This document shows positions 20,129 through 41,448 of a DNA stretch of 64,000 nucleotides, piece by piece. Position numbers and translations under genes: made by a program. Within the stretch, counting starts at the first letter, position 1. Every line of letters begins with the position of its first letter. The DNA is from a virus, in the IMG/VR virus record IMGVR_UViG_3300034105_003151, positions 87,301 through 151,300 of that record, one strand, 5' to 3'. The notes beneath the pieces are model-generated. The model saw only the letters and a list, made by a program, of their open reading frames with translations, did no database searches and was not told where the DNA came from.

Positions 20129-20143
20129 GCAAGTGGTGTGCCG
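20129..20143 (-). promoter_or_regulatory. sigma54-type -24/-12 site
   Basis: CGGCACACCACTTGC (GG-N10-GC). Confidence 0.6.
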
Positions 20144-20213
20144 TGTGTGGATGAGGAAAAAAAGATTGTGGTTTGGTATGGAAAATTATTTTGAGATTTT
20201 CTAGATTTTTCTC

Positions 20214-20241
20214 TTGACGCTGTCGATAAAAATGGTATAAT
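20214..20241 (+). promoter_or_regulatory. sigma70 promoter, first of roughly 40 similar plus-strand promoters (e.g. 22655, 27218, 28862, 30740, 31955, 38653, 39298, 39909, 45252, 54696, 55319, 57539)
   Basis: TTGACG-N16-TATAAT; the others are TTGACA-N16(17)-TA(T/G/A)AAT or TATACT, usually followed by a purine-rich RBS. Confidence 0.85.
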
Positions 20242-20281
20242 AGAAGCACAAGAGAAAACGAAGGATAGCGGAGAGAAGATC

Positions 20282-20497
20282 ATGAAGAACTACTTTGGCA
20301 AGGCGATTGCCCCTAACGCTGACGTTCAGCGACACAACGAACAGATCGCTCACCTGCGTGAACAACTTGCTAATGCAGAAACTAACAATGATGGGAGTCG
20401 TTGTGCCAAGATGGAAATCGAAGCCTATCAAAACTTCCTTCGTATCGCTCTGGAAAGCAAGGCCAACGTTGCCTCTACCATGTTCAAGAGGAAGTGA
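20282..20497 (+). CDS. Early hypothetical protein
   Basis: GGAGAG RBS, first ORF after the promoter at 20214. Confidence 0.7.
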   Translation: MKNYFGKAIAPNADVQRHNEQIAHLREQLANAETNNDGSRCAKMEIEAYQNFLRIALESKANVASTMFKRK

Positions 20498-21016
20498 GAA
20501 ACCTTACGATTTTGTAAGGAAACTTTCTCATTGACAATCCCTTTCCTAGACGATAAAATACAAGCACAAGAGAACACAAAGGAAAAAGAAATGACTACAC
20601 TCTATCGGGTTGAATTGCATTCGGAAGGCTCTACGGTCTATCTTCTCACGAATAAGGGTTGGGCTGATATCGTCCATTTCAAGGAAAATGCCGAATATCG
20701 TGCCAACGCTTGGGTGAAGAATCAAGAGCGACTTGACCGAATGGACAATGGCTGAACCTTACGGAATTGTAAGGAAAGAAAGCTGTTGACATCCCCACAC
20801 AAAGACGATAAGATACTAGGACACAAAGGAAAAAGACAATGAAGACTTTCTATATGTATGAGGCTGTTGGCAACGAGTACCGATATTGGGGTACGTTGTT
20901 TGCCGACAACTGGGTTGATGCTAGGGCTACAGCGGTTAGCCTTTGGGGTATCTCCTTTGGCAACATTGTTGCTGCTAGTACTCGCCTTCCCTTCTCTATG
21001 GTTACGGAGTGAACAG

Positions 21017-21205
21017 GTGAATAGGTTTGATGGTTACGATACGATAGAGTTGGGTAAGAGGCTTGTGCAGTTCCAGGCTGCTCTGGAGAAGTGTACGCCT
21101 GAACAACCTAACGCTCGTACATATATCAGAGAGATGATTCGTGCTATCGCCCGTGAACTACTGTATAGGTATCGTCAAGAGACTGAGCTACTGTACAGTA
21201 AGTGA
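21017..21205 (+). CDS. Small helical protein, paralog of 23125..23307
   Basis: GGAG RBS and GTG start; YDTIELGKRLVQFQ...ARELLYRYRQET. Confidence 0.7.
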   Translation: MNRFDGYDTIELGKRLVQFQAALEKCTPEQPNARTYIREMIRAIARELLYRYRQETELLYSK

Positions 21206-21239
21206 TCATATGTACACTCATAAGCACCTAAGACCTTGA

Positions 21240-21321
21240 CGTAAAGCCTTACTGCATAAGGACTTGCGACAAGGCGGGCGGGCCGCATTTGACGTAAACC
21301 CTTGTGGCGTATAGACTTACG
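21240..21321. repeat. Element A copy 2 (double)
   Basis: CGTAAAGCCTT-N7-AAGGACTTGCG, GGCGGGCCG, CGTAAACCCTT-N7-ATAGACTTACG; 53-bp period. Confidence 0.92.
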
Positions 21322-21356
21322 ACTGTACTATCTAAATTACGCTACTAGAGCCCTGC

Positions 21357-21373
21357 TTGGCACGGTATTTGCA
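21357..21373 (+). promoter_or_regulatory. sigma54-type -24/-12 site
   Basis: TTGGCACGGTATTTGCA matches YTGGCACGRNNNTTGCW. Confidence 0.75.
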
Positions 21374-21952
21374 CATCGAAAATATTTTGGATTTTCTTGG
21401 ATTTTTCTCTTGCAAGAGGTCGATAGAGTATGTATAATGCACTCACAAGAGAAACGAAGGAAAAAGGAAAAGAAAATGCGAGACATCAAAGTTGGCGAGC
21501 GGGTGGTTTTGGTGGAATCCGATTGGCTGTATGATGACGGTCAAGAGCCGCGTGGTGTGGTCGTTCGAGATTTGGGTCAAGGTGGATTTGTGATCCTGTG
21601 GGATGATGGTGAAGAGGGATCGGTTTCGGAAGAACAACTGGCTCACGAATAAAAAAGAAAAAAGGCTATTGACAGCGGTGAAAAAAGTCGATAAAATACT
21701 AGAACAAGAGAACGAAGAACAAAGGAAAAAGAAAATGTACGCTGTCAAGAATGTCGATTGCAAGTGGGTTGTGGTGGCTGGCAAGGTTGAGTTGGCCTCT
21801 TTCGCCACGGAGAATGAGGCTAACCGCTATGCCGATTATATGGATCGGATGGATCGTCGGGACAACGGTCGATAATTCAAAAAAGCTGTTGACAGATTCG
21901 GATTCGGACGATAAAATCCTAGCAGATCGATAACCCCAAAAGGATTCTGAAA

Positions 21953-22135
21953 ATGGACAACTTCACGGGCGAGATGTTTGCCGATTTTGATGTCTATCAA
22001 GCCAGAATGGAGAATGAAGCCATGCCTTATGAGGATTGCGAAACTTATGACCCCATTATGGGGGGTGATGAGGATTGGACCGAAACGGACGATGATTTTG
22101 CCGCCGATTATTACGGCGAAGAGGAGTTTGCCTAA
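21953..22135 (+). CDS. Very acidic small early protein
   Basis: 60 aa, D/E-rich with only one basic residue; own promoter and AAGGA RBS. Confidence 0.7.
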   Translation: MDNFTGEMFADFDVYQARMENEAMPYEDCETYDPIMGGDEDWTETDDDFAADYYGEEEFA

Positions 22136-22148
22136 AAGGGCAACTTGA

Positions 22149-22194
22149 CCTAAACCTTTGCCTCGTAAAGACTTACGGCGAGGCGGGCGGGCCG
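22149..22194. repeat. Element A copy 3 (single plus core)
   Basis: CCTAAACCTTT-N7-AAAGACTTACG then GGCGGGCCG. Confidence 0.88.
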
Positions 22195-22200
22195 ATTTTT

Positions 22201-22237
22201 TTGGCACGGTATTTGCATTTAGCAAACGGTGTGCCAA
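22201..22237. promoter_or_regulatory. Convergent pair of sigma54-type sites
   Basis: TTGGCACGGTATTTGCA (+) facing TTGGCACACCGTTTGCT (-). Confidence 0.75.
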
Positions 22238-39833: not shown

Positions 39834-39907
39834 AGTGGGATAGAAAAGTTGGCTAATTCAACGGTTTCATAAGCCGTCATGCGTGGGTTCGAATCCCACT
39901 CTCACTA
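39834..39907 (+). tRNA. tRNA-Met/Ile2(CAT)
   Basis: ACGGT-TT CAT AA-GCCGT. Confidence 0.88.
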
Positions 39908-39944
39908 CTTGACATCGACAGGACGGTATGTATAATGGATTTAT

Positions 39945-40017
39945 GGGGCGTTCGTCTAATGGTCCAAGACGCAGGTCTTATTAACCTGCTATGGGAGTTC
40001 GATTCTCTCACGCCCTA
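39945..40017 (+). tRNA. tRNA-Ile(TAT)
   Basis: CAGGT-CT TAT TA-ACCTG. Confidence 0.8.
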
Positions 40018-40030
40018 CTGATGATTACAT

Positions 40031-40103
40031 GGCGACGTAGACCAAAGGTAGAGTCAAGGGATTTAAAATCCCTGTAGCGTGGGTTCGACCCCCACCGTCG
40101 CTA
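40031..40103 (+). tRNA. tRNA-Leu(TAA), short variable loop
   Basis: AGGGA-TT TAA AA-TCCCT. Confidence 0.9.
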
Positions 40104-40107
40104 CTTC

Positions 40108-40178
40108 GGAGATAAAGCATTGTGGTGATGTAGCTGGCTCTTAACCAGCACAGTAAGGTTCGATTCCTTATATCTCCA
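40108..40178 (+). tRNA. tRNA-Lys(CTT)
   Basis: GCTGG-CT CTT AA-CCAGC. Confidence 0.88.
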
Positions 40179-40188
40179 TTAGGAATAT

Positions 40189-40261
40189 GCCCAATTAGTA
40201 TAGCGGTTATTATAGCGGACTTTTAATCCGACAGACCTCCGTTCGAATCGGAGATTGGGTA
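40189..40261 (+). tRNA. tRNA-Lys(TTT)
   Basis: CGGA-CT TTT AA-TCCG. Confidence 0.88.
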
Positions 40262-40301
40262 CTTGACAACGGAACCGGATAGGGTAAGATAAAGAAAACT
40301 C

Positions 40302-40374
40302 GGGATGCTAGCTCAATTGGCAGAGCAAGGAGCTTTTAACTCCGAGGTTCAGGGTTCGATTCCCTGGCGTCCCA
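40302..40374 (+). tRNA. tRNA-Lys(TTT), second copy with its own promoter
   Basis: GGAG-CT TTT AA-CTCC; promoter at 40263. Confidence 0.92.
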
Positions 40375-40854
40375 CTAAAAGGAAAAGACTAATGCAAGAA
40401 TATGAGTTTAACTACAGTATACTTGCAGAGGATGCCGATGATCTGTTGGTGGATTGGGAAGAGAACGAAACGGTTTTTGATTATTACTTTCACAAATTGG
40501 TAGAGGAGATTTGGGATGGCAACGAGGGAAAAGATCAGGAATGTGCCCAGTATTGAGGAGCTTCGAAGGGATAAGTGGAAGGTAAGAGTTTATCATGCCA
40601 GAGTATGGTTTGATCATTATGAAGCTGTTGATTATCTAATGAGTATGAAAGAAGCGAAGAAGCTACTTTCTGATTCCACTTCTACTGTGCTATTGAGTCT
40701 TTGTACTGGTGGCTATACTCGCATAGACTTTACTAGTCCTACTGGCGAAGAATATTCCACAAAGCATAATACTGCTTCTACTAAGCAGTTCAATCGTAAG
40801 AATAGTATCAGGGCGTGTCTTGGTCGATTTGTCATGCAAAGGGGTTGATCTCAG

Positions 40855-41325
40855 ATGATGAATGAGCCTGTTAGTCATCGTCTCGTTGACGGTCGCGTTA
40901 TCGGTGGAGCAGATCATACTTCACGGGTATTAAATCATAAATCTAGAAATAAGATTGTGGTGCAGGCTGTTTGTGATCTGAGAAAGATCGAGAACACCTT
41001 TGACAGCATTGTTATTACTGGTATTAGTGGCTTGCTTGTTGGACCCGACGTAGCATCTATCCTGAATAAGCATATTGTAGTAATAAGAAAAAGTACGGAG
41101 GGTTGTTATTCTCCGTTTATCATAGAGGGTGTTATCCCTCATAACTACATTATTCTGGACGATCTTATCTGCTCGGGCAAAACTGTGAATGGTATTCTAA
41201 AAGTACTAAAAGACGAGTGTCCTCGTTCTAGATGTTCTGGTGTCTACTCTTATCTTAAAGAACATTGTGCTTACCGTTCCAATCCTAAACTCTGTAGACG
41301 AGATTTAGGTATTGACTATCTATAA
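40855..41325 (+). CDS. Type I phosphoribosyltransferase-like protein
   Basis: PRPP-binding motif YIILDDLICSGKT; GISG...VVIRK. Confidence 0.85.
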   Translation: MMNEPVSHRLVDGRVIGGADHTSRVLNHKSRNKIVVQAVCDLRKIENTFDSIVITGISGLLVGPDVASILNKHIVVIRKSTEGCYSPFIIEGVIPHNYIILDDLICSGKTVNGILKVLKDECPRSRCSGVYSYLKEHCAYRSNPKLCRRDLGIDYL

Positions 41326-41337
41326 TTAGTCACTCGC

Positions 41338-41419
41338 CGTAAGTGCTTGTCCCTAAACGACTTAGGGCAAGCCCGGCCCGCCCCGCCCTCCGTAAGTCCT
41401 TACGTCACAACGACTTAGG
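41338..41419. repeat. Element A copy 15 (double, core inverted)
   Basis: Palindromes start at 41338 and 41391; core CGGCCCGCC. Confidence 0.92.
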
Positions 41420-41431
41420 ACGAGTCTCCAC

Positions 41432-41448
41432 AGCAAATGCCATGCCAA
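41432..41448 (-). promoter_or_regulatory. sigma54-type site
   Basis: TTGGCATGGCATTTGCT. Confidence 0.72.

What the first reader, a model, noticed from the sequence alone, without database searches (positions are those of the whole stretch)
20129..41448. About 14 sigma54 (-24/-12) sites coupled to the repeat elements, mostly antisense, some convergent
Seen: GG-N10-GC sites matching TGGCAC/TGGCAT-N5-TTGC at 20129(-), 21357(+), 22201(+), 22221(-), 23416(-), 23437(+), 23457(-), 24801(-), 25942(+), 25961(-), 28805(-), 34972(-), 36133(-) and 41432(-). All lie between an element A copy and the next sigma70 promoter. Established: this is the RpoN consensus, RpoN holoenzyme binds as a stable closed complex until an enhancer-binding ATPase acts, and IHF often assists. 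Inference: head-to-head sites 3 bp apart cannot both fire, so they may be RpoN decoys, transcription roadblocks between cassettes, or a switch tying early expression to host state. I know of few phages that use sigma54 sites like this.
Basis: partly seen in the sequence, partly recalled or inferred. Interest (0 to 1): 0.88.

Follow-up and report, generated by a model that had tools for sequence, protein, structure and literature searches.

The report
Sigma-54 sites in phage early cassettes
An uncultured 151-kb phage has 14 copies of the DNA motif bound by the bacterial sigma-54 RNA polymerase between the terminator-like repeats and the ordinary promoters of its early genes, most of them pointing backwards; head-to-head pairs of the motif also turn up in well over a hundred unrelated phage contigs, so this looks like a real and largely undescribed way for phages to engage a host factor.

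Summary
All 14 sites are present, within 1 nt of the stated positions. Eight match TGGCAY-N5-TTGC exactly, against 0.09 expected, and 8 of the 9 exact matches in the whole 151-kb genome lie in this 21-kb stretch. GGCA and GC are invariant in all 14, while the spacer varies.

The motif is kept in the early region of relatives (TerL 71-77% identical): 89 sites on the early side against 8 on the structural side. There, 45 are antisense and 44 sense. Twenty-one sense copies look like the only promoter of small early genes.

Head-to-head pairs occur in at least 120 IMG/VR contigs, against 1 for a reversed control. Those contigs have 28-68% GC and most are unrelated to this phage. Their unconstrained positions follow the RpoN consensus.

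My reading is that these are genuine docking sites for host RNA polymerase-sigma-54, used as activator-dependent promoters. In this phage most would make antisense RNA into the preceding palindromic element.

Neither the phage nor four complete relatives encode sigma-54 or an enhancer-binding ATPase. The host is unknown and no RNA data could be obtained. The decoy and roadblock ideas remain open but have no positive support. The scan has flagged similar arrays on other phage DNA before.

The parts
20129..20143 (-). Sigma-54-like site 1 (CGGCAC-N5-TTGC). It points towards the half copy of element A and the leftward late operon. Predicted +1 is 20117.
   Evidence: (17.7 bits)
21358..21372 (+). 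Site 2, sense, exact consensus, 38 nt upstream of the -35 of the sigma-70 promoter at 21410-21438.
22202..22236 (.). Sites 3 (+, 22202-22216) and 4 (-, 22222-22236). This is a head-to-head pair with 5 bp between TTGC and GCAA, directly after a half copy of element A.
23416..23472 (.). Triple array of sites 5 (-, 23416-23430), 6 (+, 23438-23452) and 7 (-, 23458-23472). The same (-)(+)(-) layout occurs in relative L019.
24802..24816 (-). Site 8, antisense, exact consensus, 27 bp from the inverted repeat at 24843.
25913..25976 (.). A degenerate copy (-, 25913-25927, where GG has become AG), site 9 (+, 25943-25957) and site 10 (-, 25962-25976). The head-to-head gap is 4 bp.
28805..28819 (-). Site 11, antisense, with -12 element TTCGC. 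It abuts the G+C-rich centre of a half copy of element A.
34973..34987 (-). Site 12, antisense, exact. Predicted +1 is 34961, the last base of the right arm of element A. Its GG lies 23 bp upstream of the -35 at 35010.
36134..36148 (-). Site 13, antisense, exact. It lies 23 nt from element A and 24 bp from the -35 at 36172.
41433..41447 (-). Site 14, antisense, exact. Predicted +1 is 41421, the last base of the right arm of element A. It lies 24 bp from the -35 at 41471.
21239..42923 (+). Span holding 12 full copies of element A (89 nt: box pair, G+C-rich centre, box pair). They start at 21239, 23321, 24683, 25818, 27112, 30172, 33877, 34877, 36026, 37376, 41337 and 42835. Half copies lie at 20072-20121, 22142-22199, 28753-28810 and 31881-31930.
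23499..23516 (.). 18-bp inverted repeat TGTCAA-N6-TTGACA, with further copies at 24843-24860 and 26003-26020. It sits exactly 27 bp from the antisense site, across phased A-tracts. It is a candidate enhancer or operator and is conserved in relatives.
20214..41498 (+). Sigma-70-type early promoters that follow the sites: 20214-20241, 21410-21438, 22303-22332, 23537-23566, 24881-24910, 26041-26068, 28862-28889, 35010-35037, 36172-36199 and 41471-41498.
   Evidence: (49 promoter-like sites against 18.7 +/- 4.6 in shuffles)

Best explanation
The 14 motifs are genuine recognition sites for the host's RNA polymerase-sigma-54 (RpoN) holoenzyme. They are built into the repeated terminator-promoter modules that separate the early gene cassettes.

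Each module reads, left to right: a palindromic element A that ends the previous cassette; one to three sigma-54 sites; an A/T-rich, partly curved stretch; a strong sigma-70 promoter; a purine-rich leader; and a small gene.

The holoenzyme would dock as a closed complex and fire only when a host enhancer-binding ATPase is active, because the phage encodes none.

The four forward sites would give the cassette a second, conditional promoter upstream of the sigma-70 promoter.

The ten backward sites would start an antisense, non-coding transcript. At four of them (plus one degenerate copy) the start falls within 1 nt of the outer edge of element A. That transcript would run across the element and into the 3' end of the upstream cassette.

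Overlapping head-to-head or back-to-back copies can be occupied only one at a time, so they would act as two-way modules.

What is shown:
- the motif, its enrichment, its conservation and its fixed geometry;
- its use as the only recognisable promoter in relatives;
- its occurrence in many unrelated phages.

What is inferred: binding by sigma-54, dependence on an activator, and the antisense RNA.
For: (1) Match to the consensus.
- The GG-N10-GC spacing is exact in 14/14 sites, with GGCA and GC invariant and the spacer variable.
- In relatives the free positions read T before GG (83%), a purine after TGGCAY (90%), T at the two positions before TGC (59% and 64%), and A or T after GC (86%).

(2) Restriction to the early region.
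- 8 of 9 genome-wide matches lie here.
- In 80 related loci there are 89 unique sites in 431 kb on the early side, against 8 in 672 kb on the structural side, which is about chance.

(3) Promoter use in relatives.
- 21 sense copies are followed by an A/T-rich block, a purine-rich leader and the start codon of a 47-76-aa ORF about 25-55 nt downstream.
- No sigma-70 -35/-10 pair fits at these copies.

(4) A universal binder.
- These contigs have 28-68% GC, and 92 of the 120 share no protein with this phage.
- In their 248 half-sites the first spacer base is G in 65% and A in 35%, never C or T. The base before TGG is T or C in 75%, and the base after GC is A or T in 84%. This is the published RpoN pattern, quoted from memory (Barrios et al. 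1999).
- The two spacers of a pair are only 31% alike, so the pair is not a hairpin.
- The gap between the two GC dinucleotides varies from 3 to 7 bp, which fits a monomeric binder better than a dimer.

(5) Enhancer-like layout.
- In 9 of 10 modules in this phage and its relatives, the antisense site lies exactly 27 bp from an inverted repeat, TGTCAA-N6-TTGACA, across phased A-tracts.

(6) No alternative transcription machinery.
- I found no phage sigma factor, and the middle and late regions also carry sigma-70-type promoters.

(7) Precedent.
- Phage YuA has a sigma-54-like promoter confirmed by TSS mapping (PMC10914365).
Against: - The host is unknown, so I cannot show that it has rpoN. Two small related contigs sit in MAGs labelled Rickettsiales (no rpoN found) and Flavobacteriales (rpoN present), but the binning is not trustworthy.
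- Neither this phage nor four complete relatives encode an enhancer-binding ATPase.
- I recognised no known activator site. The inverted repeat lies only about 60 bp upstream of the predicted antisense start, closer than usual enhancers.
- 10 of the 14 sites point away from genes.
- The overlapping copies make no sense as simple promoters.
- The start-at-the-hairpin-edge rule holds for four of the ten antisense sites here (plus a degenerate copy) but not across the clade.
- In one group of sense sites in relatives, the predicted start falls inside a small hairpin.
- No RNA data could be obtained.
Confidence: 0.5

Rival explanations
1. Sigma-54 binds but the sites never fire. They would serve as a sink for the holoenzyme, as insulators or roadblocks next to the terminators, or as occluders of the UP-element region of the adjacent sigma-70 promoter.
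For: - No activator gene exists in the phage or its relatives.
- Orientation looks irrelevant, at 45 antisense to 44 sense.
- Overlapping palindromic copies double the chance of capture, and other phages carry arrays of 3-4 double sites at 43-54-bp spacing.
- In four units the GG lies 23-24 bp (three units) or 46 bp upstream of the -35. A closed complex there would cover the region where the alpha subunit contacts DNA.
- Sigma-54 is reported to repress when its site overlaps another promoter (cited in PMC4591121).
Against: - 21 sense copies in relatives look like working promoters.
- Most complete relatives have only 1-5 copies.
- A sink would also trap core polymerase, which this phage needs for its many sigma-70 promoters.
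- RNAP-sigma-54 was not a roadblock in E. coli.
Confidence: 0.2
2. The motif is the operator of a sequence-specific DNA-binding protein other than sigma-54, either a small early phage protein or a host factor. This protein would switch the early promoters on or off, and the likeness to the RpoN consensus would be coincidental or mimicry.
For: - The sites keep a fixed distance to the sigma-70 promoter within each unit family: 23-24 bp in one and 64 bp in the other.
- Palindromic and alternating arrays are typical of operators.
- Asymmetric, dispersed operators exist, such as those of the phage P1 C1 repressor (from memory).
- In some relatives the hairpins of element A themselves contain TGCCA-N3-TGGCA.
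- An earlier follow-up on a related phage preferred this reading (e1-5659217).
Against: - The same motif, with the same preferences at weakly conserved positions, occurs in at least 120 contigs of 28-68% GC, most unrelated to this phage. A phage-specific protein would not keep one specificity across such distances.
- The gap in the pairs varies from 3 to 7 bp.
- Among the 30 early or larger proteins scanned against Pfam, no recognisable DNA-binding domain reached the curated cut-off.
- No Sigma54_DBD-like frame was found.
- This reading does not explain the promoter-like sense copies.
Confidence: 0.2
3. The motif has no function of its own. It hitch-hikes in a repeated promoter-terminator cassette that spreads by recombination, like the PeSL elements of T4-type phages.
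For: - The sites lie in repeated units (families D13 and D15).
- The module architecture resembles PeSLs (PMC2839356, PMC4122927).
- Six of the 16 units lack the motif and three copies are decayed.
Against: - Within units that are only 68-71% identical, the core is invariant and the spacer is free.
- The motif is kept in relatives whose hairpin sequences are entirely different, and in unrelated phages.
Confidence: 0.05
4. The paired sites act as an RNA or single-stranded DNA hairpin rather than as a protein-binding site in duplex DNA.
For: The head-to-head pairs are imperfect palindromes.
Against: - Most sites are single.
- The stem letters are invariant instead of covarying.
- The spacers of the two arms are only 31% alike.
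- Rfam finds nothing here beyond tRNAs and one Pistol ribozyme.
Confidence: 0.03

Closest known systems
Enhancer-dependent sigma-54 (-24/-12) promoters of bacteria, such as glnAp2, nifH, pspA and Pu (from memory)
   Same: The GG-N10-GC core, the extended consensus, the lack of a -35/-10 pair, an upstream inverted repeat with curved DNA, and a predicted start about 12 nt after the GC.
   Different: - The sites sit on a lytic-type phage that has no activator gene.
- Most copies are antisense or overlap head-to-head.
- The inverted repeat is only about 60 bp from the predicted start.
- No known activator site was recognised.
Sigma-54-like promoter of Pseudomonas phage YuA (Ceyssens et al. 2008, as cited in PMC10914365)
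   Same: A phage that relies on host sigma-54 as well as sigma-70, with the promoter confirmed by promoter trap and TSS mapping.
   Different: That paper links a single YuA promoter (P015) to a sigma-54-like region. It describes no arrays, no antisense or palindromic copies, and no link to repeated cassette boundaries.
Intragenic and antisense sigma-54 binding sites of E. coli and Salmonella (PMC4591121, PMC3844500)
   Same: Many strong consensus sites that are bound but mostly silent, a good share of them antisense and conserved.
   Different: Those sites lie inside genes and are scattered. These lie in intergenic control modules, are phased to promoters and palindromes, and cluster at 14 in 21 kb.
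PeSL promoter-terminator cassettes of T4-type phages (PMC2839356, PMC4122927)
   Same: A repeated stem-loop plus sigma-70 early promoter module flanking small, variable early genes. This is the likely frame in which the sites sit.
   Different: PeSLs are not reported to carry sigma-54 motifs. Homology to them was not tested.

Membership tests
Sigma-54 (RpoN) -24/-12 promoter | GG and GC dinucleotides exactly 10 bp apart within TGGCAC-N5-TTGCW | tested here: met
   14/14 sites have GGCA and GC at the right spacing, and 8 are exact.
Sigma-54 (RpoN) -24/-12 promoter | The secondary preferences of the consensus: Y before TGG, a purine after TGGCAC, TT before GC, W after GC | tested here: met
   Seen in relatives and in 248 half-sites of unrelated phages. 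The consensus itself is quoted from memory (Barrios et al. 1999) and from the logo described in PMC4591121.
Sigma-54 (RpoN) -24/-12 promoter | The host encodes RpoN | not testable with these tools
   The host is unknown. MAG bins holding related contigs disagree: one has rpoN and one does not. No WhiB or psbA hallmark points to an RpoN-less host group.
Sigma-54 (RpoN) -24/-12 promoter | An enhancer-binding AAA+ activator and its upstream binding site | tested here: inconclusive
   The phage and four complete relatives have no such gene; the only hits are RuvB-like. A conserved inverted repeat with phased A-tracts lies 27 bp from the site, but its binder is unknown.
Sigma-54 (RpoN) -24/-12 promoter | The site stands upstream of, and in the sense direction of, a transcribed gene, and a transcript starts about 12 nt after the GC | tested here: inconclusive
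   In the window 4 of 14 sites are sense. In relatives 21 sense copies directly precede small ORFs.
PeSL-type promoter-terminator cassette | A repeated stem-loop followed by a sigma-70 early promoter at the borders of small variable genes | tested here: met
   16 element A units are each followed by a promoter. This is a likeness of architecture only; sequence homology was not tested.
Operator array of a phage repressor (P1 C1-like) | A cognate DNA-binding protein encoded by the phage, with sites specific to that phage lineage | tested here: not met
   None of the scanned early proteins has a DNA-binding domain above the cut-off. The motif is shared by unrelated phages.

The most novel reading that the evidence does not exclude
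Single and palindromic double sigma-54 sites form a widespread, undescribed class of phage control element. Many unrelated phages would place them in their early control regions to couple early transcription, in either direction, to the activity of host enhancer-binding proteins. Because those proteins report host stress or nutrient state, the phage would be reading the host's condition without encoding any activator of its own.
Probability: 0.3. Interest if true: 0.85.

Novelty: new variant of a known kind. Interest (0 to 1): 0.72.

Why it matters
Sigma-54 is the one bacterial sigma factor that holds RNA polymerase silent until an ATPase responds to a signal. If phages routinely build its sites into their early modules, they have a ready-made sensor of host state. 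They could also use it to make antisense RNA or to park host polymerase. Phage transcription models, which rest on sigma-70, phage sigma factors and phage polymerases, do not include this.

The head-to-head double site is at least 120 times commoner than its reversed control in public phage contigs, so the question reaches well beyond this one genome. It can be tested directly with standard reagents: E. coli or Pseudomonas holoenzyme and a constitutively active activator.

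Tried and rejected
- **Host.**
  - Megablast against isolated phages found nothing.
  - The closest isolate terminases are only about 25% identical: Bacillus phages and Microcystis phage MaeS.
  - The one genome-contig scan gave two small contigs in MAGs of different phyla.
  - No WhiB or psbA was found.
  - The Atlas look-up of the phage's GDP-mannose dehydratase-like gene gave mostly viral clusters.
  - Replication and sugar-metabolism genes gave no host signal.
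- **Phage activator or sigma factor.** The Sigma54_activat hits are a RuvB-like protein. There is no Sigma54_DBD and no Sigma70_r2.
- **Sigma-70 reading of the motif.** TTGGCA resembles a -35, but no -10 lies at 16-18 bp in the sense copies of relatives. Rejected.
- **Sigma-28 reading of the G-N-CGATAA box.** The spacing to a TAAA-like element does not fit. Rejected, by hand.
- **Start at the hairpin base as a clade-wide rule.** The distribution is broad. I keep it only as a feature of four sites (plus one degenerate copy) in this window.
- **Element A as a strand-specific RNA.** Both strands fold into a long imperfect hairpin with similar energies. This was left open, as it is the subject of other notes.
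- **Co-conserved early protein as the binder.** Early ORFs are poorly conserved, and the related loci cover only about 6 kb of the early region. Inconclusive.

Full report
**Setting**

The window is bases 87301-151300 of a 151.3-kb IMG/VR phage record that CheckV rates complete.
- Window 1-19551 carries structural and packaging genes on the minus strand, with the large terminase at 14266-16323.
- From about 20000 to 44000 the plus strand carries small ORFs, 26 tRNA genes and 43% G+C, against about 35% elsewhere.
- The rest of the genome holds replication and nucleotide-metabolism genes on the plus strand: split DnaE, DnaB, primase, ligase, RecA, RNR, NAMPT and sugar-modifying enzymes.
- Sigma-70-type promoters are strongly enriched in the early region, at 49 against 18.7 +/- 4.6 in shuffles, and nearly all strong ones are on the plus strand. 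They also precede middle and late genes.
- I found no phage sigma factor.

**Observation**

All 14 sites exist.
- Eight match TGGCAY-N5-TTGC exactly, against 0.09 expected. Eight of the nine exact matches in the genome lie in this 21-kb stretch.
- GGCA and GC are invariant in all 14, while spacer and flank positions agree in only 5-11 of 14.
- Ten sites are antisense to the early genes and four are sense.
- Each lies between a full or half copy of the 89-nt element A and the next sigma-70 promoter.
- Head-to-head pairs at 22202/22222, 23438/23458 and 25943/25962 have 4-5 bp between TTGC and GCAA.
- Units 23416-23472 and 25913-25976 are (-)(+)(-) triples.
- Three decayed copies exist, and six of the 16 units have no site.

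**Geometry in the window**
- At 20129, 23416, 34973 and 41433, and at the decayed copy at 25913, the -12 GC lies 10-11 nt from the outer end of the right arm of element A. A start 12 nt after the GC therefore falls on or 1 nt inside that edge, at 20117, 23404, 34961 and 41421.
- In three of the four simple units (34973, 36134, 41433) the GG lies 23-24 bp upstream of the -35; in the fourth (28805) it lies 46 bp upstream.
- In the three complex units (23458, 24802, 25962) the site lies 64 bp upstream of the -35. It is also exactly 27 bp from an 18-bp inverted repeat, TGTCAA-N6-TTGACA, across A-tracts spaced about 10 bp apart.

**Relatives**

The terminase finds 376 IMG/VR contigs, and the best 80 are 71-77% identical.
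- In those 80 loci the motif occurs 89 times (unique copies) in the 431 kb on the early-gene side, and 8 times in the 672 kb of structural genes, which is about chance.
- Orientation there is 45 antisense to 44 sense.
- The antisense copies again face a hairpin / G+C-rich centre / hairpin element. The hairpin sequences differ between lineages while the motif stays.
- The module of antisense site, 27 bp, inverted repeat, sigma-70 promoter and GTCGATA leader recurs in at least seven relatives. Nine of ten copies have exactly 27 bp.
- Most telling, 21 sense copies read: A5-T5 tract, TGGCAC-N5-(T/G)TGC, an A/T-rich block, a purine-rich leader, and the start codon of a 47-76-aa ORF about 25-55 nt downstream. 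No -35/-10 pair fits at the right spacing. There the motif stands where this phage has its sigma-70 promoters.
- Complete relatives carry 1-5 copies, all in the early region.

**Beyond the clade**
The same pattern read backwards occurs in one.
- The contigs have 28-68% G+C. 92 of the 120 share no protein with this phage at E < 1e-6, and only about six are clear relatives.
- Some carry arrays of three or four double sites.
- In their 248 half-sites the positions my pattern left free copy the RpoN consensus. The first spacer base is G (65%) or A (35%), never C or T. The base before TGG is T or C in 75%, and the base after GC is A or T in 84%.
- The spacers of the two arms are only 31% alike, and the gap ranges from 3 to 7 bp.
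- Invariant stem letters, unrelated spacers and a variable gap argue against an RNA hairpin and against a dimeric protein with fixed geometry.
- One specificity shared by phages of very different composition points to a universal host factor.

**Interpretation**

I read the sites as docking sites for host RNA polymerase-sigma-54.
- The sense copies in relatives make promoter use likely.
- In this phage the four sense sites would add a conditional promoter upstream of the sigma-70 promoter.
- The ten antisense sites would start a non-coding RNA into element A and the end of the preceding cassette.
- The inverted repeat with curved DNA looks like an enhancer or operator shared with the divergent sigma-70 promoter.
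- Neither this phage nor four complete relatives encode an enhancer-binding ATPase or sigma-54. Firing would therefore depend on a host activator, which would tie these promoters to host state.

All of this is inferred. I could get no RNA data, and the host is unknown.

**Rivals**

A silent sink or occluder role for bound holoenzyme cannot be excluded.
- For it: orientation looks irrelevant, and other phages carry arrays.
- Against it: relatives have few copies, the sense copies look like promoters, the phage itself needs core polymerase, and E. coli shows no roadblock effect (PMC4591121).

A different DNA-binding protein remains possible.
- Against it: the spread across unrelated phages, and the lack of any recognisable DNA-binding early protein.

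Hitch-hiking in a PeSL-like cassette explains the repeated frame (PMC2839356, PMC4122927) but not the selective conservation of the core.

**Known and new**

Sigma-54 promoters are textbook. A sigma-54-like promoter is documented for phage YuA (PMC10914365). Silent, often antisense sigma-54 sites are known in E. coli (PMC4591121). Three literature searches turned up no description of arrays of such sites, palindromic double sites, or their coupling to repeated terminator-promoter modules in phages. Earlier notes of this scan report the same kind of array on other phage DNA. My tests agree with their observation. I add the reversed-pattern control, the consensus check at free positions, the promoter-like sense copies, and the 27-bp module.

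Noticed in passing
window 35471-35543 (+): Rfam finds a Pistol self-cleaving ribozyme (RF02679, 55.2 bits against a gathering score of 34.5, full length) between early genes.
   Followed up: no
window 19900-45000: A G-[A/T/C]-CGATA box occurs 30 times here, against once in window 1-19900 and 7 times after 45000. It is nearly always part of a sigma-70-type promoter, in one of three registers: just after the -35, forming the -10 (GATAAAAT), or directly after the -10. Its binder or role is unknown.
   Followed up: partly
window 23499-23516, 24843-24860, 26003-26020; relatives L019, L030, L038, L053, L061, L068, L082: An 18-bp inverted repeat, TGTCAA-N6-TTGACA, is conserved across the clade between the antisense sigma-54 site and the sigma-70 promoter. 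Its right half looks like a -35 but has no -10 at the right spacing.
   Followed up: partly
window 20500-20542, 20755-20797, 22624-22666, 22898-22940, 23762-23782, 25113-25155: A second kind of cassette border: a small hairpin, CCTTACG-N4-TGTAAGG, directly followed by a sigma-70 promoter. In relatives a sense sigma-54-like site often lies 6-8 nt before this hairpin.
   Followed up: no
relatives L032, L062, L072 (early regions): The hairpin / G+C-rich centre / hairpin architecture of element A is kept while the hairpin letters change completely: CTGCCA-N3-TGGCAG in one lineage and a C6/G5 hairpin in another. In the first lineage the hairpin itself contains TTGGCAG, which resembles the -24 half-site.
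   Followed up: no
window 20210-20260, 21406-21460, 24851-24940: TCTCTTG at the -35 is complementary to CAAGAGA in the leader 40-80 nt downstream. In read-through transcripts the two could pair and mask the leader. This recalls the CT-rich insulation reported for sigma-54 promoters (bioRxiv 10.1101/086108, abstract only). It was seen in 4 of 8 TCTCTTG copies.
   Followed up: partly
window 31999-32097 (+): Rfam scores a 99-nt tRNA-like element at 41.3 bits, but ARAGORN does not call it.
   Followed up: no
IMG/VR loci L128 (3661-3779), L135 (418-596), L138 (55-227), L160 (16-160): Unrelated phage contigs with 40-63% G+C carry tandem arrays of three or four palindromic double sigma-54-like sites at 43-54-bp spacing in non-coding regions.
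   Followed up: partly
G000 54862-59191 (outside the window): DNA polymerase III alpha is split into two genes, with an RNase T-like exonuclease gene between them.
   Followed up: no
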